Shown here one piece after another: positions 28,303-45,737 of a stretch of 64,000 bases of DNA (the stretch's first letter is position 1; each line of letters begins with the position of its first letter). This DNA comes from a virus (lineage: Duplodnaviria > Caudoviricetes). The notes beneath the pieces are model-generated. The model had not been told where the DNA came from. It saw only the letters and a program-made list of their open reading frames with translations, and did not search any database. Position numbers and translations under genes: made by a program. Location of the stretch: IMG/VR virus record IMGVR_UViG_3300031555_010338, one strand, 5' to 3'.

Positions 28303-29889
28303 ATGAAACTGAGACTTACTAAGGCCGGTCGTGCCGTCCTGTTCATTGCCATTATCGTTGTGTTGGGTGTGGGTGGCTTCTTTGGCTATCAGCATTTCGC
28401 CGGTGACGGCGCAAGCCTGATCGACCAGTTCCAGAGCGATAAGCTTCCCAGCAACGATACAAATGCTGGTGTTACCGACACCGCAAAGCCCAATAATAAC
28501 ACCGCTCAGAATATCGACACCAATGACACCACCATCAATCTGTCTCTGGACGAGTGGATTGGTTGGAAGCCCATTATTGATGCCAATCAGGGCTTGACTA
28601 CCCAGCCTGGTTCTATCTTTGATAAGCTTGGTCTGAAGGTCAATATCAATATTATCAACGATGCAGATGCTTCCAGCAATGCTCTGATTAAGGGTGATCT
28701 GAATGCAGCCGGCTATACGCTTAACCGTACCGCATTCCTTTCTGGTAAGTTCAGTGATGCCGGCCTGGATGTTGTGATGCCCGTGTTCACCAATTACTCT
28801 GATGGCGGCGATGGCATTATCGCTCTGAGCAAGTACAACACCATTGAGAGCCTTGTTGATGCCAAGATCGGTGTACCCAAGTTCAGTGAGGCACAGTCCC
28901 TTGTTATCTGGTTTGTGAATAAGTCCGATCTGCCCGATGCAGATAAGCAGAAGATTATCGACAATCTGATCCTGCTGGACGATGCTGAGCAGACCGGCCA
29001 GGCATTCTTCGCAGGCAGTCTGGACGTTGCTGCAACTTGGCAGCCCTACTTGTCCAACGCAGAGAATAGCACCAATTCCCACATTCTGTTCGATACCACT
29101 TCCTCTAACAAGCTGATTATGGACGGCATTTTGTTCCGCTCCGATTTTGCACAGGCACATCCCGACATGATTTCCGCCTTTATCGATGGCATTTTCCAGG
29201 CCGAGGATATGTACGAAACCGAGTTTAAGTATATCCGTAAGGTAATGCCTATGTTCGCTGACTCTTCTGATGAAGACATTCTGAGCATGTGCGGTGACGC
29301 TGGCCTGATGGGTTATACCGAGAATGTAAACGCTCTGGAAAACGACTGCCCCACCGTGTATGCAGACATGTGTGCAATCTGGGAGAGCATTGGCGAGACT
29401 GTTGACAGAACTCTTGGTGCAACTCTGTTTGACACCAGCTATGTAAAGACCCTTTCCAATAACTATTCTTCTCTGCCCCAGCAGTCTACCTTTGAGATTA
29501 CCGAAGAGCAGAAGGAAAGTATCAAGGATGTTGCTGCTCTTCTGACCAAGAGCGCCACCATCAACTTTATCCCCGATACTGCGAAGTTCCTGGATAATGC
29601 AGAGGCTGATGCTGTTCTGAGCGAGTTCGTTGAGATGGCTAAGACTCTGGATGGTACTATCATCCAGATCGAGGGCAATATCAACTCCAACAGCAACACC
29701 GAGGGCGGTATGAAGCTGTCCGAGGAACGCGCAAAGACCGTTAAGAACTACTTTGTGGCAAACGGCATTGATCCCAACCGCATTATCGTAGTCGGTAACG
29801 GCAATACAAAGATGGTCGCTGATCCCAATGGCCCCAATGCGGAGCAGAACCGAAGAACCGATATCTTCTTCAAGACGATTGAAAACTAA
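28303..29889 (+). CDS. NMT1/THI5-like substrate-binding protein fused to C-terminal OmpA-like peptidoglycan-binding domain
   Basis: N-terminal TM; WIGW, SDGGDGI, DVAATWQPY; C-terminal IEGN...LSEERAKTVKNY...NRRTDI. Confidence 0.85.
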   Translation: MKLRLTKAGRAVLFIAIIVVLGVGGFFGYQHFAGDGASLIDQFQSDKLPSNDTNAGVTDTAKPNNNTAQNIDTNDTTINLSLDEWIGWKPIIDANQGLTTQPGSIFDKLGLKVNINIINDADASSNALIKGDLNAAGYTLNRTAFLSGKFSDAGLDVVMPVFTNYSDGGDGIIALSKYNTIESLVDAKIGVPKFSEAQSLVIWFVNKSDLPDADKQKIIDNLILLDDAEQTGQAFFAGSLDVAATWQPYLSNAENSTNSHILFDTTSSNKLIMDGILFRSDFAQAHPDMISAFIDGIFQAEDMYETEFKYIRKVMPMFADSSDEDILSMCGDAGLMGYTENVNALENDCPTVYADMCAIWESIGETVDRTLGATLFDTSYVKTLSNNYSSLPQQSTFEITEEQKESIKDVAALLTKSATINFIPDTAKFLDNAEADAVLSEFVEMAKTLDGTIIQIEGNINSNSNTEGGMKLSEERAKTVKNYFVANGIDPNRIIVVGNGNTKMVADPNGPNAEQNRRTDIFFKTIEN

Positions 29890-29914
29890 CATAGCCTAAA
29901 CAGGCATGGAAGTA

Positions 29915-29975
29915 ACGGCACTTACAGCAACTTTACTACACATAATTTGGGTTTATGATCGTGAAAATGTGCCGT
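29915..29975 (+). ncRNA. ACAGCAA-tagged RNA 1 carrying a Pro(TGG)-like anticodon stem-loop
   Basis: ACGGCAC/GTGCCGT closing stem, TTACAGCAA, inner CATAA-TTTGGGT-TTATG. Confidence 0.65.
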
Positions 29976-29996
29976 GTTGGAATACGAAATATAATA

Positions 29997-30053
29997 AAGG
30001 CGCTAACAGCAATGTTACAAAACATGGACTTGAAATCTATTCAAATGCGCCTT
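29997..30053 (+). ncRNA. ACAGCAA-tagged RNA 2 carrying a Ser(TGA)-like anticodon stem-loop
   Basis: AAGGCGC/GCGCCTT closing stem, TAACAGCAA, inner ATGGA-CTTGAAA-TCTAT. Confidence 0.65.
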
Positions 30054-30064
30054 GCAAAGAAAAT

Positions 30065-30157
30065 GGAGCAGTAAGCCTAACTGGTAAGATAGTCGCCTGC
30101 TAAGCGACGAGTAGCCGCGTAAGCGGTGTGCAGGTTCGAGTCCTGTCTGCTCCGCCA
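30065..30157 (+). tRNA. tRNA-Ser(GCT)
   Basis: GGAGCAG/CTGCTCC acceptor, GTCGC-CTGCTAA-GCGAC, long variable arm, GGTTCGAGTCC, encoded CCA. Confidence 0.9.
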
Positions 30158-30161
30158 TCAA

Positions 30162-30327
30162 GAGCAAGTAGGCAAAGAGAAAGCCTATTCATATCGACGA
30201 GCAATAACTGTAACACCTCCCTTTACTCACCATACATCCCCCTCCCTATCTCCTTTGTTCCCTGCTTCGTCGCATGAATACAAAATAGATTCGTCTATTG
30301 CATAGGAGCGTTGCCTATGCCTTGCTC
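30162..30327 (+). ncRNA. Structured ncRNA candidate with large C/U-rich loop
   Basis: Nested helices GAGCAAG/CTTGCTC, TAGGCAA/TTGCCTA, TATTCAT/ATGAATA, CGACGAGCA/TGCTTCGTCG enclosing an anti-SD-rich loop. Confidence 0.6.
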
Positions 30328-30340
30328 GATAAAAAAATCT

Positions 30341-30427
30341 GCTGGTGTGGTGGAATTGGCAGACACATCGGACTTAAGTTCCGATGCTCGTAAGGGCGTG
30401 TGGGTTCAAGTCCCACCGCCAGCACCA
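30341..30427 (+). tRNA. tRNA-Leu(TAA)
   Basis: GCTGGTG acceptor, TGGAATTGGCAGAC D-arm, TCGGA-CTTAAGT-TCCGA, variable arm, T-arm, CCA. Confidence 0.95.
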
Positions 30428-30432
30428 AACAC

Positions 30433-30546
30433 GGGAGCGTCTGGGCGGCAGCTTTTTACAGTGTATAGGACGGCGGACACTTACAGCAACTTTACAAAAA
30501 GAGTTATGGAAAAACTTAGCTTGCGGTTCGATTCCGCAGCTCCCCA
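30433..30546 (+). ncRNA. ACAGCAA-tagged RNA 3: degenerate tRNA-like with Ser(GGA)-like loop
   Basis: GGGAGC/GCTCCC acceptor, GACAC-TTACAGCAA tag, GAGTT-ATGGAAA-AACTT, T-arm TGCGG-TTCGATT-CCGCA. Confidence 0.6.
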
Positions 30547-30613
30547 AAGCCGTTAATTTTCTTCAAAGTCCGGTTAATTTTATTGGCAGTCGATGATAAG
30601 ACATAATAGACAT

Positions 30614-30729
30614 GCGGAAGTAGCTCAGTCGGTAGAGCAACAGTAAAAAAAATGTGTCGTGTATATGACGCACACAGCAATTTCAAATATGGGAACTGCG
30701 TGTCGGAGGTTCGAGTCCTCCCTTCCGCG
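30614..30729 (+). ncRNA. ACAGCAA-tagged RNA 4: tRNA with insertion in the anticodon loop (Pro-like TGG/GGG)
   Basis: GCGGAAG/CTTCCGC acceptor, canonical D- and T-arms, insert AATGTGTC..GACGCAC-ACAGCAA. Confidence 0.7.
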
Positions 30730-30736
30730 CGAATAT

Positions 30737-30853
30737 GCCAGGGTAGCTCAGTTGGATAGAGCGCGTAAATAACGCGACTTGTACAAGACGCTAACAGCAA
30801 TTTCTTTTGGTCTGTTAAACCCGTGGTCGTGGGTTCGAGTCCCACCCCTGGCG
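30737..30853 (+). ncRNA. ACAGCAA-tagged RNA 5: tRNA-Asn(GTT) with 43-nt insertion in the anticodon stem
   Basis: GCCAGGG/CCCTGGC acceptor, G73, GGT-CTGTTAA-ACC; insert 30766-30808 contains GACGC-TAACAGCAA. Confidence 0.75.
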
Positions 30854-30860
30854 CATTTAT

Positions 30861-30977
30861 ACGGTGGTCGTCAAGTGGTAAGACAGCGGCCATATAAAAT
30901 GTGACCGTAAGGCTCACTAACAGCAAAGTTATGAAGCCAAGCCGCCACCGCAGGTTCGATTCCTGCCCACCGTTCCA
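30861..30977 (+). ncRNA. ACAGCAA-tagged RNA 6: tRNA-Gly(GCC)-like with insertion in the anticodon loop
   Basis: ACGGTGG/CCACCGT acceptor, T73, CCA; GCGGC/GCCGC stem; insert AATGTGA..TCAC-TAACAGCAA before GCCAA. Confidence 0.75.
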
Positions 30978-31202
30978 CGGGGATAAGCTGACTTCGCCAT
31001 TCAAACAGCCCCTTATTAAACTGGTAGAAATGGCCTCTGGTACAGCAGAAGTAAAGAGGTATAGCCGGCGATGAGTCGTAGTAACCGGCGAGGTTAAGAG
31101 CTGACGCATGGGAACTGTAACTCCCTGGGCATCGTGAAAAGTCATCCACGGCCACACGGATGGTACGATGTACCGCTCCTGCATAGGTGCGCATATGCAA
31201 AT

Positions 31203-31287
31203 CGAGACACTTACAGCAACATTAAAGGTTAAAGTAGTTGGTAGCATTGCCGATGCGAGAAGGTTCAAGTCCTTCACTCGTGTCTCG
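31203..31287 (+). ncRNA. ACAGCAA-tagged RNA 7: terminal tag stem enclosing a D-loop/T-arm module
   Basis: CGAGACAC/GTGTCTCG, TTACAGCAA, AGTTGGTAG, GAAGG-TTCAAGT-CCTTC. Confidence 0.65.
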
Positions 31288-31299
31288 TAAACCTCCTTT

Positions 31300-31405
31300 A
31301 AGACACCTGCAGCAAATAACAATGGGAGTCGTTTTAATTGGTAAAGACGGCTGGATACCAGTCATGCGGGTTCGAGTCCCGTCTTCTATTAAAATGGCGT
31401 GTCTT
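31300..31405 (+). ncRNA. Tagged RNA 8: terminal tag stem enclosing a cloverleaf with minimised anticodon loop
   Basis: AAGACAC/GTGTCTT, variant tag CTGCAGCAA; AATGGGAG/CTTCTATT, D-loop TAATTGGTA, GGCTGG-ATA-CCAGTC, GCGGG-TTCGAGT-CCCGT. Confidence 0.65.
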
Positions 31406-31462
31406 GGGGAATCGCGTTTCTTTTATTGGAATTAGCAAAACAATTTAAGGAGGAACTAAGAA

Positions 31463-32980
31463 ATGAGCAATTTTATGTCTGCGGTCAAGAACACTCTGAA
31501 CAATGAGTGTAACTACTCCATGACGGAGAATGGTGCGCTGGGCTATCGCACCACCGGCAAGGAGCTGTTGGATCTCAACTTTGCGGTTGCTTCTCTGCGC
31601 CGCGCAACTCCCAGCGAAATCGCAAACCGATTTACAAAGGCTTTCTTTGAGGACAAGATCGTTGCGATGAAGTGGCTGTTCTTCGCCCGTGATGTTCGTG
31701 GTGGCCTGGGTGAGCGCCGCCTGTTCAGAACCATCCTGTCTAATATGGCTCACACAAACCCCGAATACATCGTACCTCTGCTGGAACTCGTTCCTGAGTA
31801 TGGCCGCTACGATGATCTGTGGTGTCTGCTCGATACCGAGCTGCAGAAGGATGTTCTGGATGTGATTTCCAAGCAGCTTACCGAAGACATCCAGAACTTG
31901 AAGGAAGGCAAGGGTATTTCCCTGCTGGCAAAATGGCTTCCTTCTCCCAATGCTTCTTCTAAGACTACCAAGCGGTATGCCAAGAAGATTTACAAGCACA
32001 TGGGCGTTTCTGAGCGAGACTACCGCAAGGCAATCTCTCGTCTGCGTACCAAGCTGGATGTCGTCGAGAAGAAGATGTCCGCTAAGCATTGGGGTGATAT
32101 CGCATATGAGGCTGTCCCCTCTCGTGCCAACCTGATCTACAACTCCGCTTTCCTTCGTAACGACGAAGAGCGCCGCCGTAACTTCCTCTCCAAGCTGGAA
32201 AAGGGCGAAGCAAAGATCAACGCATCCACCCTGTTCCCTCACGACATTGTACATCAGTATGGCCGAAAGAGTAGTGCTGATGCTACTTTGGAAGCTCTGT
32301 GGAAGGCTCTGCCTGACACCGTTCAGGGCTGCGGCAACACTATTGTTGTGGCAGACGGTAGTGGTAGCATGAGCGTCCGCGTTGGTGGAACTGATGTTTC
32401 TGCTCTGGAAGTTGCTAATGCACTGGCAATTTACTTTGCCGAGCGTTCTTCCGGTCAGTTCAAGGATAACTACATTACCTTCTCTGAGCGTCCTAAGCTC
32501 GTCAATCTGAGCAATGGAAAGAACCTGCGTGAGAAGATCCAGATCGCTCGTCGCCATAGCGAGGTAGCAAACACCAATATCGAAGCTGTCTTCGATCTGA
32601 TTTTGACTACCGCAAAGCGCGAGAATATGGCGCAGGAGGATATTCCTCAGAACATCCTTATCATCTCTGACATGGAGTTTGATGGCTGCGCGGTTTGCAC
32701 TACGAACCGTCGTCCTGATGCCCGTCTGTTCCAGGTGATTGCCAAGCGTTACGAAGACGCTGGCTATAAGCTGCCCCGCCTGGTGTTCTGGAATGTGAAT
32801 AGCAGAAGTGCTACCATTCCCGTTATCGAAAACGACATGGGTGTTGCGCTGGTAAGCGGCTTCAGCACCAATATCGTCAAGATGGTCATGAGCGGCAAGA
32901 CCGATCCCTATGAGTGCTTGCTGGAAACTCTGAACACCGAGCGTTATGCACCGATTGGTGAGGCTCTGAAGAGTCTGTAA
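31463..32980 (+). CDS. DUF2828-family protein (helical repeats plus C-terminal vWA; putatively TROVE/Ro60-like)
   Basis: TENGA, ARDVRGGLGER, YGRYDDL, AKWLPS, VPSRA, LFPHDIV; MIDAS DGSGSM, ISDMEFD, FWNV, VSGFS. Confidence 0.88.
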   Translation: MSNFMSAVKNTLNNECNYSMTENGALGYRTTGKELLDLNFAVASLRRATPSEIANRFTKAFFEDKIVAMKWLFFARDVRGGLGERRLFRTILSNMAHTNPEYIVPLLELVPEYGRYDDLWCLLDTELQKDVLDVISKQLTEDIQNLKEGKGISLLAKWLPSPNASSKTTKRYAKKIYKHMGVSERDYRKAISRLRTKLDVVEKKMSAKHWGDIAYEAVPSRANLIYNSAFLRNDEERRRNFLSKLEKGEAKINASTLFPHDIVHQYGRKSSADATLEALWKALPDTVQGCGNTIVVADGSGSMSVRVGGTDVSALEVANALAIYFAERSSGQFKDNYITFSERPKLVNLSNGKNLREKIQIARRHSEVANTNIEAVFDLILTTAKRENMAQEDIPQNILIISDMEFDGCAVCTTNRRPDARLFQVIAKRYEDAGYKLPRLVFWNVNSRSATIPVIENDMGVALVSGFSTNIVKMVMSGKTDPYECLLETLNTERYAPIGEALKSL

Positions 32981-42123: not shown

Positions 42124-43530
42124 GTGAAGACATTGTATTCTGCATTTGTTACCAGAATTAAAAACCTGAGAAAACATACGAATGCAGATCGTCTGATGTG
42201 TGGCGAGTGTTTTGGCAATACGGTTATCGTTGGCCTGGACACTCAGCCAGACGAGCTTGGTGTTTACTTCCCCGTAGACGGCAAGCTTGGTTTGGAGTTT
42301 GCGCAGAAGAATGATCTGCTCCGCCGCAAGGATGAAAATGGCAAACCTGCTGGCGGTTATCTCGATCCTGAGAAGAGAAACATTAAGGCTCTGAAGCTCC
42401 GTGGAGAAAAGAGCGACGGCCTGTTTATGCCTCTTGTTTGTCTGGCAGATTACACCGATATTGCCAGTTTGAAAGAGGGTGACACCATTACAGTGTTGAA
42501 TGGTGTAACGATTTGTGAGAAATATATCCCCCGCGCAAGTAGTAGGGGGGGGTGTCATTTTGATGGTAATCGCACTCGCAAGCGCAAAGATCCTGTGTCT
42601 CCCCTGTTCATGGAACATGCAGACACGGAACAGCTTGCCTACAATCTTACATCCTTCCGTGCTGGCGACCAAATCGAGGTCACTTTGAAGATGCACGGCA
42701 CTTCTCAGAGAACCGGCTATCTTCCCGTTCTGAGTGGATATAAGCGCACCATTATGGATAAGCTGCGCAAGCGTTCTGGCACACCGATTTATGATTGGGG
42801 CTATGTCTCCGGTACTCGTCGTGTAGTTCTGGACGATTATGAAGGCGGCTACTATGGGAGCAACGCCTTCCGTGAGCAGCACAGCAAGATCTTTGAAGGC
42901 AAACTTCATAAGGGCGAGACGGTATATTATGAGGTTGTTGGTTTTACTCAGGACGGTACGCCTATCATGGCTTCTTGTGATAACAAGAAAGTAGGCGATA
43001 AGGAATTTACTAAACAATACGGAGATGTTACGACATTCTCTTATGGCTGCAAGCCTGGACATTTGGGCGGACTTATCAAAGATAAGGAAATTGTGGATAA
43101 CGAAGCTGTTGTGTATCCGCAGTCTGACATCTATGTGTACCGTATGACCATGACCAATGAGGACGGCGATGTAGTTGAGTACACGCCCGATTTTATGCGT
43201 TACCGTTGTGAGCAGATGGGCGTTAAGTGTGTTCCCGTATTTTACAAGGGCTACATTCCCGAATACTTCATCCTGCCCGATGATGTTGGAAGTCCCGCCG
43301 CAATCGATGCTGGTGCATATGTAAAGAAGCTGGCTGAGGATTTCTACGACGGCGCTGATCCTGTTGGTAAATCCCATATCCGTGAGGGTGTTGTAGTTCG
43401 GATCATCAACCGTCCTAAGTTCACCGCTTACAAGCATAAGAACTTTGCGTTTAAGGTGCTGGAGGGCATTATCAAGGATGTTGCTACCGCACCTGACATG
43501 GAAGAGGCTCAGGAACAGGAGGCTGCATAA
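42124..43530 (+). CDS. ATP-dependent RNA ligase (Rnl2/DRB0094-like) with N-terminal OB-like domain
   Basis: H.NADRL and KLRGEKSDG N-domain; motif I KMHGTS, III YYEVVG, IV EGVVV, V YKHKN. True start may be TTG 42133. Confidence 0.85.
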   Translation: MKTLYSAFVTRIKNLRKHTNADRLMCGECFGNTVIVGLDTQPDELGVYFPVDGKLGLEFAQKNDLLRRKDENGKPAGGYLDPEKRNIKALKLRGEKSDGLFMPLVCLADYTDIASLKEGDTITVLNGVTICEKYIPRASSRGGCHFDGNRTRKRKDPVSPLFMEHADTEQLAYNLTSFRAGDQIEVTLKMHGTSQRTGYLPVLSGYKRTIMDKLRKRSGTPIYDWGYVSGTRRVVLDDYEGGYYGSNAFREQHSKIFEGKLHKGETVYYEVVGFTQDGTPIMASCDNKKVGDKEFTKQYGDVTTFSYGCKPGHLGGLIKDKEIVDNEAVVYPQSDIYVYRMTMTNEDGDVVEYTPDFMRYRCEQMGVKCVPVFYKGYIPEYFILPDDVGSPAAIDAGAYVKKLAEDFYDGADPVGKSHIREGVVVRIINRPKFTAYKHKNFAFKVLEGIIKDVATAPDMEEAQEQEAA

Positions 43531-43694
43531 TGGGACTTCCGCAAATCATTTTTGTTGGGCTTTATGCTCTGTCGCTTGGTTGCATTCTGGCTAAGCACGG
43601 CGAAGCAAGAACGGGGAAGTATAATTTCTTCACTTCTCTGTTTACTGTCTCCTTAGAGATGATGCTGCTTTGGTGGGGCGGCTTCTTTGGATAA
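43530..43694 (+). CDS. Small membrane protein (54 aa)
   Basis: Below the ORF-track cutoff; AGGAGG RBS, TAATG coupling; ends LLWWGGFFG. Confidence 0.65.
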   Translation: MGLPQIIFVGLYALSLGCILAKHGEARTGKYNFFTSLFTVSLEMMLLWWGGFFG

Positions 43695-44001
43695 ACAAAC
43701 CATCATCGACTTCATCCGCCACTTCAAAGATGCGCAAAAGACATTTCTTGACGGGTGCTGCTACTGGTTCTGCTATATTTTGAGCGCCAGATTTGGAGGC
43801 TCAACATTTTATGAGCCAGTTGAAGGACACTTTGTACAAAAAATTGGCGATTCGTTCTTTGATGTGCGCGGTGATGTCACTGAACTGTATAAGGACTGTC
43901 GGTATATGGTGTGTTGGGATACATACAAGCTTGTAGACCCAACACATTACCGGCATGTTGTAAGAGACTGTGTATTGAAAGAGAGGTATGAAGATGATTG
44001 A
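43687..44001 (+). CDS. Hypothetical protein (GCCYWF...GHF...FDVRG)
   Basis: Cys-His-Asp pattern reminiscent of a papain-like triad. Confidence 0.65.
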   Translation: MDKQTIIDFIRHFKDAQKTFLDGCCYWFCYILSARFGGSTFYEPVEGHFVQKIGDSFFDVRGDVTELYKDCRYMVCWDTYKLVDPTHYRHVVRDCVLKERYEDD

Positions 44002-44806
44002 TGCACTTGAGCGTGACCAGAAAATCATGCGTCGGCTTGCTGAACATCTTGATTCGGTGAAGGATAAACATCCAGAATGGGTCGGTATCTTTCTCCAAGG
44101 CTCTCAGAATTACAACCTGGACTATGAGGGGAGCGACATTGATTCAAAGCTGATTGTCCTCCCCTCTTTCGAGGATTTTGTACTTAACAGAAAGCCTTAT
44201 AGCTACACGCACATCATGGAAAACGATGAGCATGTGGATGTAAAGGATATTCGCTTGATGTTTGAGTGCTTCCGTAAGCAAAATATCAACTTTGTTGAGA
44301 TCCTTTTTACAAAGTATCGCATTATGAACCCTAAATACGAGGTGTTGTTCAAGCCCGTTTTGGATGCTCGTGAACTCGTTGGACGATACAACAACTATGC
44401 CGCTATGAACTGTATGGTTGGTGCGGCGATGGAGAAGCGCAAGGCTTTGTGCCATCCTTATCCCGCCACTATGGAGAAGATCGAAAAGTTTGGCTACGAT
44501 CCGAAGCAACTTCATCATATCCTGCGCTTTGATGAATTTAATGAGCGTTGGCTTGCCGGTGTTCTGTATGAACACTGCTTGATTTCTGAGCAGCGTGACT
44601 ATTTTCGATCTGTAAAGTTTGGTTGTCACACTTTAGAAGAAGCAATCGAAATTGCAGACGAAACGATTGAGCGTATGAAACGACGTAAAGACGAGTACAT
44701 GGCTGCTACCCCCCCCATTATCAATCGTGATGTGGAGCAAATCTTGAACTCAGCTCTTATCGAGCTGTTCAAATACAATTTTCAGTGTGAGATTGGAGGT
44801 GTGTAA
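43988..44806 (+). CDS. DNA polymerase beta-superfamily nucleotidyltransferase
   Basis: QGSQNY.LD..GSDID signature; YDPKQLHHILR. Confidence 0.8.
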   Translation: MKMIDALERDQKIMRRLAEHLDSVKDKHPEWVGIFLQGSQNYNLDYEGSDIDSKLIVLPSFEDFVLNRKPYSYTHIMENDEHVDVKDIRLMFECFRKQNINFVEILFTKYRIMNPKYEVLFKPVLDARELVGRYNNYAAMNCMVGAAMEKRKALCHPYPATMEKIEKFGYDPKQLHHILRFDEFNERWLAGVLYEHCLISEQRDYFRSVKFGCHTLEEAIEIADETIERMKRRKDEYMAATPPIINRDVEQILNSALIELFKYNFQCEIGGV

Positions 44807-44807
44807 C

Positions 44808-45737
44808 ATGGAAAATAAGCAACCTATCTTTTTCATGCTTGTTGGTCTTCCGTACAGTGGAAAATCTGTCCAGGCCGAAAAGCTGAAAGAACAGTATGGA
44901 GCTGTTATCCATTCCAGTGATGCCATCAGAGCGGAAGTCCTTGGCGATGTTCAGGATCAGAATAATAATGGAAAAGTGTTTGAAGTTCTTCACCGCCGCG
45001 TCTTTGATGATCTGTCTGCCGGCAAGAATGTCGTGTACGATGCTACCAACATCAGTTATAAGCGCCGCATGGATGCTTTGCAGCGTATCAACAAAATCGA
45101 TTGTCAGAAGGTCTGCCTTTTCATGGCAACTCCCTTTGATGTCTGTATTGAGCGCAGCAAGAACCGTGAGCGCGTTGTTCCTTATGAGGTTGTCGAGCGC
45201 ATGTATAAAACGATCTGGATTCCCAATGTGTATGAGGGTTGGGATCATGTTGAGTTGATTTATCCCGAAGGTTTTAAGCCTTACAATCTTCGTGACCTGT
45301 TCAACGGAGAGAATGGTTTGAACTACATCAATCAGGACAATCCTCATCACGCTCTGACTGTCGGACATCATTGCATTACTGCATATGGCCTTGTCCACAA
45401 CGAGTCTCCTGAATTGCAGGAAGCAGCTCTTCTGCATGATATCGGTAAGCCTTTTACGAAGTCTTTCGTAAATAGCAAGGGTGAAACTACTGAGGTTGCC
45501 CATTATTACGACCATCATCATGTTTCCGCATATGACAGTTTGTTTTATGGTGATTTCAGTCTGGATCGTCTTTACATCGCCGCTATCATCCAGTGGCATA
45601 TGAGGCCGTTTGAACTTGAGCGTCTTGGTGACTCCAGACGTGCAAAAGAAAAGTTCAGAGATCTTGTTGGATATAAGCTGTACCGCGACATTGAGCGTCT
45701 GCATGTGGCAGATATCGAAGCGAAAGGCTTGAAGTAA
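44808..45737 (+). CDS. Polynucleotide kinase (P-loop) fused to HD phosphohydrolase (RNA end-healing)
   Basis: GLPYSGKS, SSDAIR, DATN; NPHH...LLHDIGK, HM, AD. Confidence 0.85.
   Translation: MENKQPIFFMLVGLPYSGKSVQAEKLKEQYGAVIHSSDAIRAEVLGDVQDQNNNGKVFEVLHRRVFDDLSAGKNVVYDATNISYKRRMDALQRINKIDCQKVCLFMATPFDVCIERSKNRERVVPYEVVERMYKTIWIPNVYEGWDHVELIYPEGFKPYNLRDLFNGENGLNYINQDNPHHALTVGHHCITAYGLVHNESPELQEAALLHDIGKPFTKSFVNSKGETTEVAHYYDHHHVSAYDSLFYGDFSLDRLYIAAIIQWHMRPFELERLGDSRRAKEKFRDLVGYKLYRDIERLHVADIEAKGLK

What the first reader, a model, noticed from the sequence alone, without database searches (positions are those of the whole stretch)
30433..30977. tRNAs with about 40-nt tagged insertions in the anticodon arm that fit no known intron class
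Seen: elements 4-6 have canonical acceptor, D and T arms. Identity elements are consistent (Asn GTT with G73; Gly GCC with T73 and CCA). Each carries a hairpin+ACAGCAA insert, but at different positions: the 5' strand of the anticodon stem for Asn (30766-30808) and the 5' side of the loop for the Gly and Pro-like RNAs. Element 3 is more degenerate. The inserts are far too short for group I/II introns and show no obvious bulge-helix-bulge. Inference: these are either a new protein-dependent intron (the phage encodes a ligase and PNK/HD) or permanent protein-docking appendages on non-translating tRNA mimics.
Basis: partly seen in the sequence, partly recalled or inferred. Interest (0 to 1): 0.8.

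Follow-up and report, generated by a model that had tools for sequence, protein, structure and literature searches.

The report
tRNA look-alikes carrying a Ro60-like protein handle
Four tRNA-shaped genes in this phage really do carry about 43 extra bases in the anticodon arm, but the extra piece is most likely a permanent docking handle for the Ro60-like protein encoded next door, which makes these RNAs an undescribed, widespread kind of tRNA mimic and probably not tRNAs with a new intron.

Summary
E4 (30614-30729), E5 (30737-30853) and E6 (30861-30977) have intact acceptor, D and T arms. In each, a hairpin followed by NN-ACAGCAA interrupts the anticodon arm. In E5 it sits between base pairs 28 and 29 (30766-30808). 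In E4 and E6 it sits on the 5' side of the loop. E3 (30433-30554) is a reduced tRNA shape with the same module.

Orthologues in 10-13 related viral contigs keep every helix, with many compensatory changes, so these are not pseudogenes.

The same helix-plus-ACAGCAA junction also closes small RNAs by pairing their two ends, where it cannot be an intron. It lies on the gene strand beside DUF2828 genes in 12 unrelated phage lineages. The DUF2828 protein models as a Ro60 fold. I found no bulge-helix-bulge, group I core, splicing endonuclease or RtcB.

All 29 ordinary tRNA genes of this phage encode CCA, against 1 of the 4 handle-bearing RNAs.

Best reading (about 0.6): these are Y-RNA-like tRNA mimics with a retained protein handle. 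Excision by an unknown nuclease, sealed by the phage RNA ligase and PNK/HD, stays possible (about 0.2).

Nothing in Rfam 15 or the searched literature describes this. This scan has noted the same module in at least 17 other genomes.

The parts
30433..30554 (+). E3: reduced tRNA-shaped RNA. It has a 6-bp acceptor (30433-30438/30539-30544), handle hairpin 30460-30481, ACAGCAA 30483-30489, anticodon-like hairpin 30502-30516, and T arm 30522-30538. Handle loop 30469-30474 pairs with the 3' trailer 30549-30554.
   Evidence: Alignment A5 of 10 orthologues is 97.7% paired, with 16 of 26 pairs changed on both sides. The loop-trailer helix is 100% paired, with 4 of 6 pairs compensatory.
30614..30729 (+). 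E4: Pro-like tRNA-shaped RNA. The anticodon stem 30640-30644/30695-30699 encloses a 50-nt loop containing the handle hairpin (about 30653-30672) and ACAGCAA 30674-30680. No CCA is encoded.
   Evidence: Rfam tRNA 49.8 bits. Fold z-score -4.36, with the MFE showing acceptor, D, T and handle hairpin. A3 is 92.8% paired, with 14 of 28 pairs compensatory.
30737..30853 (+). E5: Asn-like tRNA-shaped RNA. The 43-nt insert 30766-30808 lies between pairs 28 and 29 of the 5' strand of the anticodon stem. ACAGCAA is at 30794-30800 and the anticodon loop CTGTTAA at 30812-30818. No CCA is encoded.
   Evidence: Rfam tRNA 45.2 bits. A1 is 96.6% paired, with 12 of 27 pairs compensatory. All 3 pairs of the lower anticodon helix are compensatory.
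30861..30977 (+). E6: Gly-like tRNA-shaped RNA. The anticodon stem 30886-30890/30941-30945 encloses 50 nt with handle hairpin 30901-30917 and ACAGCAA 30920-30926. GCCAA 30936-30940 is conserved. T73 and CCA are encoded.
   Evidence: A2 is 99.2% paired, with 12 of 24 pairs compensatory. Fold z-score -3.05.
29915..30054 (+). E1 (29915-29975) and E2 (29997-30053): small RNAs closed by the same helix-NN-ACAGCAA junction. The helix is formed by the two ends of the RNA and encloses a cargo of 34-38 nt.
   Evidence: Sequence; helix search.
31203..31409 (+). E7 (31203-31287) and E8 (31296-31409): the same junction, with termini-closed helices CGAGACAC/GTGTCTCG and AAGACAC/GTGTCTT, enclosing tRNA fragments. 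E8 carries the variant GCAGCAA.
   Evidence: Sequence; helix search.
31463..32980 (+). Gene for the DUF2828/DUF7788 protein (505 aa) with a Ro60-like fold, the presumed partner of the handle.
   Evidence: Pfam DUF7788 1.5e-45 and DUF2828 1.8e-34. PHROG 850 'RNA-binding protein' 1.8e-141. AlphaFold model pLDDT 75, pTM 0.71. The top 13 PDB matches are all Ro60/TROVE structures.
42124..45737 (+). RNA repair cassette: RNA ligase (42124-43530), nucleotidyltransferase (43988-44806) and a kinase (AAA_33) plus HD phosphohydrolase protein (44787-45737).
   Evidence: PHROG 968 RNA ligase 3.3e-63 and PHROG 388 nucleotidyltransferase. PF13671 3.2e-20 and PF01966 1.5e-6 in one frame. ORF coordinates.

Best explanation
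E3-E6 are real, selected, tRNA-shaped non-coding RNAs. A portable RNA module has been grafted into their anticodon arm. The module is a 5-10-bp helix (5 bp in E3) whose base usually reads GYG/CRC, with an A-rich run ending in T on the 5' side and NN-ACAGCAA on the 3' side.

Inferred: the module stays in the mature RNA and docks the Ro60-like DUF2828 protein encoded 490 nt downstream of the last of the four elements. That gives a particle built like Ro60 with a Y RNA. The ring protein sits at the anticodon end. The acceptor/T-arm elbow and an exposed anticodon or anticodon-like strand remain free as bait for proteins that recognise tRNA.

Most speculative step: the baited proteins are host anticodon nucleases, or tRNA-modifying or tRNA-charging enzymes. 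The particle would then work alongside the phage's ligase / CCA-type nucleotidyltransferase / PNK-HD repair cassette.

Shown here: the structures, their conservation, the two topologies of the module, its co-occurrence with DUF2828, and the Ro60-like fold. Inferred: binding, retention of the module, and the biological role.
For: 1. Structure under selection. The three tRNA families and the E3 family are 93-99% paired, with 12-16 compensatory pairs each. These values are far above the shuffled and slid controls.

2. One junction, two topologies. It is hairpin-closed inside tRNA bodies (E3-E6). It is closed by the RNA's own ends in E1, E2, E7 and E8, where it cannot be an intron.

3. Link to the protein.
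- Relatives with DUF2828 at 47-74% identity keep ACAGCAA modules and T loops beside the gene.
- In 12 distant phage loci (Vibrio, Listeria, Mycobacterium, Salmonella, Bacillus, Enterococcus, Campylobacter, Staphylococcus, Aeromonas, Erwinia, Rhizobium, Synechococcus) ACAGCAA occurs 37 times on the gene strand and 3 times on the other, against 5.4 expected.
- Handle-bearing tRNAs recur in Aeromonas phage 4_4572 (L159:500-616, tRNA model 49.2 bits) and Synechococcus phage B23 (L162:4851-4960, 51.4 bits; annotated in GenBank as tRNA-Undet). My script also flags about 47 candidates in IMG/VR contigs.
- Of ten such contigs with no DUF2828 in the fetched piece, five carry it elsewhere. The other five are fragments estimated 29-69% complete.
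- Only 710 of 50,697 phage records hold the gene.

4. Fold. The top 13 PDB matches of the model are Ro60/TROVE structures, aligned over the full length, with E 1e-8 to 6e-5.

5. The E3 handle loop forms a 6-bp helix with the 3' trailer. It is 100% paired with 4 compensatory pairs, so the module is built into the fold.

6. Against a decoding role.
- All 29 ordinary tRNA genes of the phage encode CCA, against 1 of the 4 handle RNAs.
- Ordinary tRNA-Asn(GTT) and tRNA-Pro(TGG) already exist in the phage.
- Removing the insert from E4 or E6 leaves no U33.
- On one constant body the anticodon changes: GTT, TCT, TTT, TGT.

7. The motif pattern (T3, C6, C9, A10, A11 next to a terminal stem) matches what Kjellin et al. 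describe for the abundant mature Class I RNAs of dictyostelids (PMC7919456).
Against: There is no transcript, binding or processing data.

In the Asn-like architecture the anticodon hairpin is fully canonical (Y32/A32, U33, purine 37). Precise excision would restore a perfect 5-bp stem, as expected of a spliced tRNA. This architecture recurs with many anticodons.

The phage has the healing and sealing enzymes a protein-dependent splicing pathway would need.

The two-topology argument is not decisive. Archaeal bulge-helix-bulge sites also occur both in introns and in processing stems that flank retained RNAs.

The protein model is of moderate quality (pLDDT 75; TM about 0.5 to Ro60). Its sequence does not reach the Pfam Ro60 vWA threshold (16.6 against 27.7 bits).
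Confidence: 0.6

Rival explanations
1. A new protein-dependent tRNA intron or processing signal. The handle marks the RNA for an unknown endonuclease, perhaps recruited by the DUF2828 protein. The phage PNK/HD and RNA ligase then heal and seal the exons, giving working tRNAs (Asn and others). In the termini-closed RNAs the same cut would release the cargo.
For: Removing E5 30766-30808 leaves a perfect tRNA-Asn with a 5-bp stem and the loop CTGTTAA. The same 2-bp + insert + 3-bp design with canonical loops recurs for Asn, Thr, Arg, Ser, Pro and Lys anticodons, among others; Asp appears in an A32 variant. The insert nearly always begins with TA directly after pair 28. An RNA ligase, a nucleotidyltransferase and a kinase/HD protein are encoded 11-14 kb away.
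Against: No endonuclease candidate was found. There is no bulge-helix-bulge. The only weak hit to the splicing-endonuclease family is a FolD enzyme, and there is no RtcB. The distances from the handle to both would-be splice sites vary (7-14 nt and 8-12 nt), and the 3' junction has no conserved bases. E4 and E6 families would not regain a canonical loop. The E3 handle loop is tied into the fold. CCA is missing in 3 of 4.
Confidence: 0.2
2. The handle is a cis-acting site for something other than DUF2828. Examples are an RNase that dices the polycistronic array, a phage transcription signal, or a site for another RNA-binding protein. On this view the adjacency to DUF2828 reflects only a shared tRNA-region neighbourhood.
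For: Binding to DUF2828 is inferred from adjacency alone. Dictyostelid Class I RNAs with the same motif pattern are reported to bind an RRM protein, Rnp1A (PMC7919456).
Against: The helix covaries while ACAGCAA stays fixed, which is RNA-level selection and does not fit a DNA promoter. The motif follows the DUF2828 gene strand in 12 lineages with otherwise different neighbours. In some it lies downstream of the gene (L026, L029, Faith1, BE22).
Confidence: 0.1
3. They are working tRNAs that decode with the extra arm in place, as an expanded tRNA.
For: The elbow nucleotides are intact (U8, A14, G18 G19, T54 T55 C56) and E5 has a canonical anticodon loop. E6 encodes CCA.
Against: From general knowledge of ribosome-tRNA contacts, a 43-50-nt arm on the anticodon stem should clash with the 30S A and P sites. 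E4 and E6 lack U33. Three of the four lack the CCA that all 29 ordinary tRNA genes encode. Asn(GTT) and Pro(TGG) are redundant with ordinary genes.
Confidence: 0.05
4. They are decaying tRNA pseudogenes disrupted by a small mobile insertion.
For: E3 looks degenerate at first sight, and default tRNA finders miss all four.
Against: Orthologues at 47-74% protein identity keep every helix through compensatory changes and keep the insert at the same place. The insert has no terminal repeats or target duplications.
Confidence: 0.02

Closest known systems
YrlA-type Y RNAs with Ro60/Rsr in bacteria and phages (Rfam RF02553; Chen et al. 2014, PMC4201824; Thermus phage phiLo Ro60 with Yrl1/Yrl2, PMC12135203)
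   Same: A ring protein of Ro60 fold is encoded beside small RNAs that combine a protein-binding helix with a tRNA-like domain. The protein-binding part joins the tRNA shape at the anticodon end. RNA repair genes are linked: RtcB in Salmonella and in Listeria phage LP-048, and ligase plus PNK/HD here.
   Different: The protein belongs to DUF2828/DUF7788, not the TROVE family. The handle sequence (ACAGCAA) is unrelated to the Y RNA Ro-binding helix. In E3-E6 the RNA keeps true tRNA topology, with its ends in the acceptor stem, and the handle is a closed hairpin. In YrlA the ends form the Ro-binding stem. RF02553 scores only 27.9 bits against a threshold of 69, and that match spans two neighbouring elements.
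Class I RNAs of dictyostelid social amoebae (Rfam RF01414; Kjellin et al. 2021, PMC7919456)
   Same: [quoted passage not shown] The near-invariant T3, C6, C9, A10, A11 fit NNTTACAGCAA as seen here. The rest of the RNA is variable and the stem covaries.
   Different: Those RNAs are reported only in Dictyostelia and with an RRM protein partner. None is a tRNA chimera. RF01414 reaches 21.4 bits on a termini-closed handle RNA at genome 46066-46132 and 13.4 bits on the E3 handle, against a threshold of 41.5. Whether the likeness reflects homology is untested here.
Protein-spliced tRNA introns of archaea and eukaryotes (bulge-helix-bulge, EndA/Sen endonuclease, RtcB or Trl1-type ligation)
   Same: A short insert with no ribozyme, in or near the anticodon arm. 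Archaeal introns also occur at non-canonical positions. Healing and sealing enzymes are present in this phage.
   Different: There is no bulge-helix-bulge, no endonuclease homologue and no RtcB. The insert carries a conserved protein-type motif that also occurs outside tRNAs. The insert site is 28/29 or the 5' side of the loop, not 37/38.
Group I introns in bacterial and phage tRNA anticodon loops (PMC3984707)
   Same: They interrupt tRNA genes of bacteria and phages in the anticodon arm.
   Different: From general knowledge, group I introns need a catalytic core of roughly 200 nt or more. The inserts here are 43-50 nt and match no Rfam intron or ribozyme family.

Membership tests
tRNA (Rfam RF00005) | Score at or above the gathering threshold, with acceptor, D and T arms | tested here: met
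   E4 scores 49.8 bits and E5 45.2 bits against a threshold of 29. E6 and E3 are not reported by Rfam, but their arms are supported by covariation.
tRNA (Rfam RF00005) | Contiguous 5-bp anticodon stem closing a 7-nt loop with U33 | tested here: not met
   In E5 the stem is split 2+3 by 43 nt. E4 and E6 have 50-nt loops, and the residue before the anticodon-like triplet is A.
tRNA (Rfam RF00005) | Encoded 3' CCA, as in every ordinary tRNA gene of this phage | tested here: not met
   29 of 29 ordinary genes have CCA. Of E3-E6 only E6 has it.
tRNA (Rfam RF00005) | Aminoacylation and decoding | not testable with these tools
   This needs acid-urea gels or reporter assays.
Y RNA / YrlA (RF02553) with Ro60 | Match to the YrlA covariance model | tested here: not met
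   The best match is 27.9 bits against 69. It joins the T arm of E4 to the D arm of E5. There is no YrlA hit in eight related or distant loci.
Y RNA / YrlA (RF02553) with Ro60 | Partner protein of the Ro60 kind (HEAT-repeat ring plus vWA domain) | tested here: inconclusive
   By fold the feature is met: the top 13 PDB hits are Ro60/TROVE. By sequence family it is not: the matches are DUF2828/DUF7788, with vWA_Ro60 at 16.6 bits against 27.7, and phmmer finds no PDB match.
Y RNA / YrlA (RF02553) with Ro60 | [quoted passage not shown] | tested here: not met
   In E3-E6 the handle helix is a local hairpin. The feature is met by E1, E2, E7 and E8 of the same array.
Bulge-helix-bulge tRNA intron | Two 3-nt bulges separated by a 4-bp helix at the exon-intron borders | tested here: not met
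   No such motif spans the insert in E3-E6. Totals are 0-2 per element, against 0.6-2.4 in shuffles.
Bulge-helix-bulge tRNA intron | Splicing endonuclease (PF01974) available | tested here: not met
   The only hit in the phage (12 bits) is a FolD enzyme. The host genome was not available.
Group I intron | Catalytic core recognised by Rfam intron models | tested here: not met
   No intron or ribozyme family appears at E up to 5 in 29000-32000.
Dictyostelid Class I RNA (RF01414) | Conserved motif next to a stem (T3, C6, C9, A10, A11) | tested here: met
   E3 reads ACTTACAGCAA directly after the helix. The pattern is as described in PMC7919456.
Dictyostelid Class I RNA (RF01414) | Score at or above the gathering threshold (41.5 bits) | tested here: not met
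   21.4 bits at genome 46066-46132 and 13.4 bits on the E3 handle.

The most novel reading that the evidence does not exclude
The handle defines a new, protein-guided class of tRNA intron and RNA-processing site in bacteriophages. On this reading the Ro60-like DUF2828 protein recognises helix-NN-ACAGCAA and presents the RNA to a nuclease, and the phage ligase and PNK/HD reseal it. Phage tRNAs would be stored as nuclease-resistant pro-tRNAs and matured on demand. The termini-closed RNAs would release anticodon-arm fragments.
Probability: 0.15. Interest if true: 0.9.

Novelty: new variant of a known kind. Interest (0 to 1): 0.72.

Why it matters
If the reading holds, many phages of Firmicutes, Actinobacteria, Proteobacteria and cyanobacteria make particles in which a Ro60-shaped protein holds whole tRNA look-alikes by a handle set into the anticodon arm.

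This would extend the Ro60/Y-RNA principle, whose function in bacteria is still unclear, to a second protein family and a second RNA design. It would explain tRNA genes that annotation pipelines call 'undetermined' or miss altogether.

It would also give a testable link between phage tRNA arrays, tRNA repair enzymes and host anticodon-nuclease defences. The shared motif with dictyostelid Class I RNAs hints at a much older RNA-protein pair.

In practice, the handle is a short, portable tag that nature has grafted onto many RNA scaffolds.

Tried and rejected
I did not use these calls, because they contradict the covarying helices.

2. I asked whether E4-E6 are recent copies of the phage's own ordinary tRNAs. 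The best global alignments are to unrelated isoacceptors, so they are not.

3. The weak splicing-endonuclease hit (E 0.025) inside the ordinary tRNA array is a FolD dehydrogenase/cyclohydrolase.

4. YrlA hits in the array are artefacts of adjacent T and D arms. Chen et al. warn of this for dimeric tRNAs.

5. Promoter and terminator scans gave counts no higher than shuffles and were not informative.

6. Single-sequence MFE folds of E3, E5 and E6 do not reproduce the full cloverleaf (E3 z-score 0.05). I therefore relied on covariation and not on these folds.

7. My helix-search script and candidate lists contain false positives at short helix lengths. I cite only clear cases. The count of about 47 candidate handle-tRNAs is approximate.

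8. Literature searches for DUF2828, Ro-like phage proteins, intron-containing phage tRNAs and TROVE/vWA/tRNA-like RNAs found no description of this RNA. One hit (PMC10732093) was irrelevant.

9. No RNA-protein docking tool was available, so binding was not modelled.
Full report
**What is in the window.** The window is part of a 143,788-bp IMG/VR provirus record. Between an OmpA-domain gene that ends at 29889 and a 505-aa gene at 31463-32980 lies 1.5 kb with no long reading frame. Default ARAGORN finds two ordinary tRNAs there, Ser(GCT) and Leu(TAA). The Rfam tRNA model also hits 30614-30729 and 30737-30853, skipping 50 and 56 nt in the anticodon arm. ACAGCAA occurs seven times on the + strand within 1.3 kb. 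The whole window has 24 copies against 11.6 expected, and no shuffle reaches 24.

**Check of the observation.** By direct reading, E5 has:
- acceptor 30737-30743/30846-30852;
- a standard D arm and T arm;
- an anticodon stem whose 5' strand is CG (30764-30765), then 43 nt (30766-30808), then GGT (30809-30811);
- the loop CTGTTAA and the uninterrupted 3' strand ACCCG.

E4 and E6 keep a 5-position anticodon stem (one A/C mismatch in the window's E4) that encloses 50 nt. The hairpin and ACAGCAA sit on the 5' side. An anticodon-like strand (TATGGGA, and GCCAA) sits on the 3' side, with no U33. E3 has a 6-bp acceptor, a T arm, a small anticodon-like hairpin and the same module. No bulge-helix-bulge spans any insert. 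No Rfam intron or ribozyme family matches.

**Are they real RNAs?** A scan of viral contigs with the 505-aa protein gave 23 loci at 47-74% identity. Nearly all have clusters of ACAGCAA and T loops beside the gene. I aligned orthologues of each element and counted pairs for the structure I read in the window.

| Family | Sequences | Cells paired | Pairs changed on both sides |
|---|---|---|---|
| Asn-like (E5) | 13 | 96.6% | 12 of 27 |
| Gly-like (E6) | 11 | 99.2% | 12 of 24 |
| Pro-like (E4) | 11 | 92.8% | 14 of 28 |
| E3 family | 10 | 97.7% | 16 of 26 |

In the Asn-like family all three pairs of the lower anticodon helix are compensatory. In every family the slid controls fall to 28-54% paired. 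The handle helix itself covaries (GCGAA/TTCGC, GTGAGTC/GATTCAC, CGCGGGTT/AATTCGCG and others), while ACAGCAA stays fixed. These are selected structures, not pseudogenes.

**What the insert is.** The same local junction appears in two topologies. The junction is a helix with an A-rich run ending in T entering one strand and NN-ACAGCAA leaving the other. In E3-E6 the far end of the helix is closed by a short loop. In E1, E2, E7 and E8 the helix is formed by the two ends of the RNA and encloses the rest. In the second form it cannot be an intron.

The junction follows the neighbouring gene. In 12 phage loci from unrelated lineages that carry a homologue at 32-42% identity, ACAGCAA occurs 37 times on the gene strand and 3 times on the other, against 5.4 expected. 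Most copies are clear termini-closed handles next to the gene and its tRNA array. Examples are Listeria LP-048, Mycobacterium Faith1, Salmonella Mushroom, Bacillus Skywalker, Campylobacter CPX, Staphylococcus BE22, Aeromonas 4_4572 and Rhizobium RHph_I1_18. Rfam finds nothing but tRNAs in these loci.

**Handle-bearing tRNAs elsewhere.**
- Aeromonas phage 4_4572 has one (L159:500-616).
- Synechococcus phage B23 has one that GenBank lists as tRNA-Undet (L162:4851-4960, with the variant ACTGCAA).
- A pattern scan of IMG/VR plus a script gave about 47 further candidates. Among the 123 RNAs that a second, wider script listed from all the loci held, 39 have the E5 design with a canonical loop: two pairs, insert, three pairs, 7-nt loop.
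- The loops present Asn, Thr, Arg, Ser, Pro, Lys, Cys and other anticodons; Asp appears in an A32 variant that the strict count left out.
- Of the 119 fetched stretches, 34 contain the protein gene. Of ten flagged contigs without it in the fetched piece, five have it elsewhere and the other five are fragments.
- Only 1.4% of GenBank phage records carry the gene.

**The protein.** Pfam places it in DUF7788 and DUF2828, with a sub-threshold Ro60 vWA match. PHROGs calls it 'RNA-binding protein'. Sequence search of the PDB finds nothing. An AlphaFold model built from 11 sequences (pLDDT 75, pTM 0.71) shows a helical-repeat half and a vWA half. Its best 13 PDB matches are all Ro60/TROVE structures aligned over the full length. 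The likeness to Ro60 is therefore one of fold, not of family.

**Intron or appendage?**

For excision:
- Removing 30766-30808 leaves a perfect tRNA-Asn.
- The E5 design with canonical loops is widespread.
- The phage has an RNA ligase (42124-43530), a nucleotidyltransferase (43988-44806) and a kinase/HD protein (44787-45737).

Against excision:
- There is no bulge-helix-bulge, no endonuclease (the one weak hit is FolD) and no RtcB.
- The distances from the handle to both would-be junctions vary, and the 3' junction has no conserved bases.
- E4 and E6 and their orthologues would not regain a canonical loop.
- In the E3 family the handle loop pairs with the 3' trailer in a helix that is 100% paired with four compensatory pairs. 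The module is part of the fold, and the RNA runs past the acceptor end.
- All 29 ordinary tRNA genes of this phage encode CCA, while E3, E4 and E5 do not.
- The phage already has ordinary tRNA-Asn(GTT) and tRNA-Pro(TGG) in a separate array of 27 tRNAs. E4-E6 are not recent copies of them.
- On the constant Asn-like body the anticodon reads GTT, TCT, TTT or TGT in different relatives. L015 and L017 differ by two of their few substitutions exactly there.

I weigh this as about 0.6 for a retained handle and about 0.2 for excision. The two-topology argument alone is not decisive, because archaeal splice motifs also occur around retained RNAs.

**How it most likely works.** By analogy with Ro60 and Y RNAs (PMC4201824, PMC12135203), the handle binds the ring protein and the rest of the RNA is the effector module. 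Here that module is a whole tRNA shape, or in E1 and E2 a bare anticodon arm. The acceptor/T elbow is free, and an anticodon or anticodon-like strand is exposed next to the protein.

The partners would be proteins that read tRNA anticodon arms. Three things make host anticodon nucleases, or the repair of their damage, the most plausible theme: the repair cassette in this phage; the HD and RtcB genes beside the homologue in Listeria phage LP-048; and the position of the gene at tRNA arrays in many phages. This last step is inference only.

**Comparison with what is known.** The closest system by mechanism is Ro60/Rsr with YrlA. Membership fails on the covariance model, the protein family and the topology. 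The closest RNA by motif is the dictyostelid Class I RNA: a terminal 6-bp stem followed by an 11-nt motif with T3, C6, C9, A10 and A11 nearly invariant (PMC7919456). RF01414 reaches only 21.4 and 13.4 bits here. Searches of the held literature found no account of a DUF2828 partner RNA or of such tRNA chimeras.

Earlier notes of this scan describe the same module in at least 17 other genomes and reach similar readings. I used them as leads only. The Class I RNA lead came from one of them, and I checked it partly.

**Verdict.** The inserts fit no known intron class. They are most likely permanent Ro60-like-protein handles on tRNA mimics, which is a new variant of the Ro60/Y-RNA kind. Transcript sizes and a binding assay would settle the question.

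Noticed in passing
genome G000:C1:46066-46132 (- strand), outside the window, inside the ordinary tRNA array (locus L170): A ninth handle RNA of the termini-closed type lies here (AGAGCGC, TT, ACAGCAA ... GCGCTCT). Its cargo contains CTTTTAA, the loop of tRNA-Lys(UUU). It is the best match in the phage to the dictyostelid Class I RNA model, at 21.4 bits, which is below threshold.
   Followed up: partly
window 30469-30474 with 30549-30554: The loop of the E3 handle hairpin (GACGGC) pairs with the 3' trailer (GCCGTT) beyond the acceptor stem. The helix is kept in 10 of 10 relatives, with 4 of 6 pairs compensatory, which indicates a pseudoknot-like tertiary helix.
   Followed up: yes
L015:3478-3602 versus L017:3505-3629: These nearly identical Asn-like handle RNAs differ in the anticodon itself, GTT versus TCT. 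Other relatives show TTT (L027, L023) and TGT (L030) on the same body. This looks like rapid turnover of the displayed triplet.
   Followed up: partly
genome G000:C1:44347-44438 and 45521-45611 (- strand): ARAGORN calls tRNA-Ile(TAT) at 92 nt and tRNA-Gln(TTG) at 91 nt. Both are unusually long for these isoacceptors.
   Followed up: no
L023:3699-3808 and L030:614-781: These tRNA-shaped genes carry a different insert in the anticodon arm: a GC-rich hairpin followed by GACAGAA, not ACAGCAA. They end in a loop reading CATTTAA.
   Followed up: no
L162:4851-4960 (Synechococcus phage B23, MN695335.1) and L154 (Salmonella phage Mushroom): The B23 gene is annotated in GenBank as tRNA-Undet, yet it is a handle-bearing tRNA with the variant ACTGCAA. 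In L154 the feature table lists the tRNAs on the - strand of the locus, while Rfam finds them on the + strand, the same strand as the DUF2828 gene.
   Followed up: partly
window 30162-30327: This stretch between the two ordinary tRNAs is rich in C and T (CCCTCCC, CTCCTTT). Another first-stage note flags it as a possible anti-Shine-Dalgarno RNA. I did not examine it.
   Followed up: no
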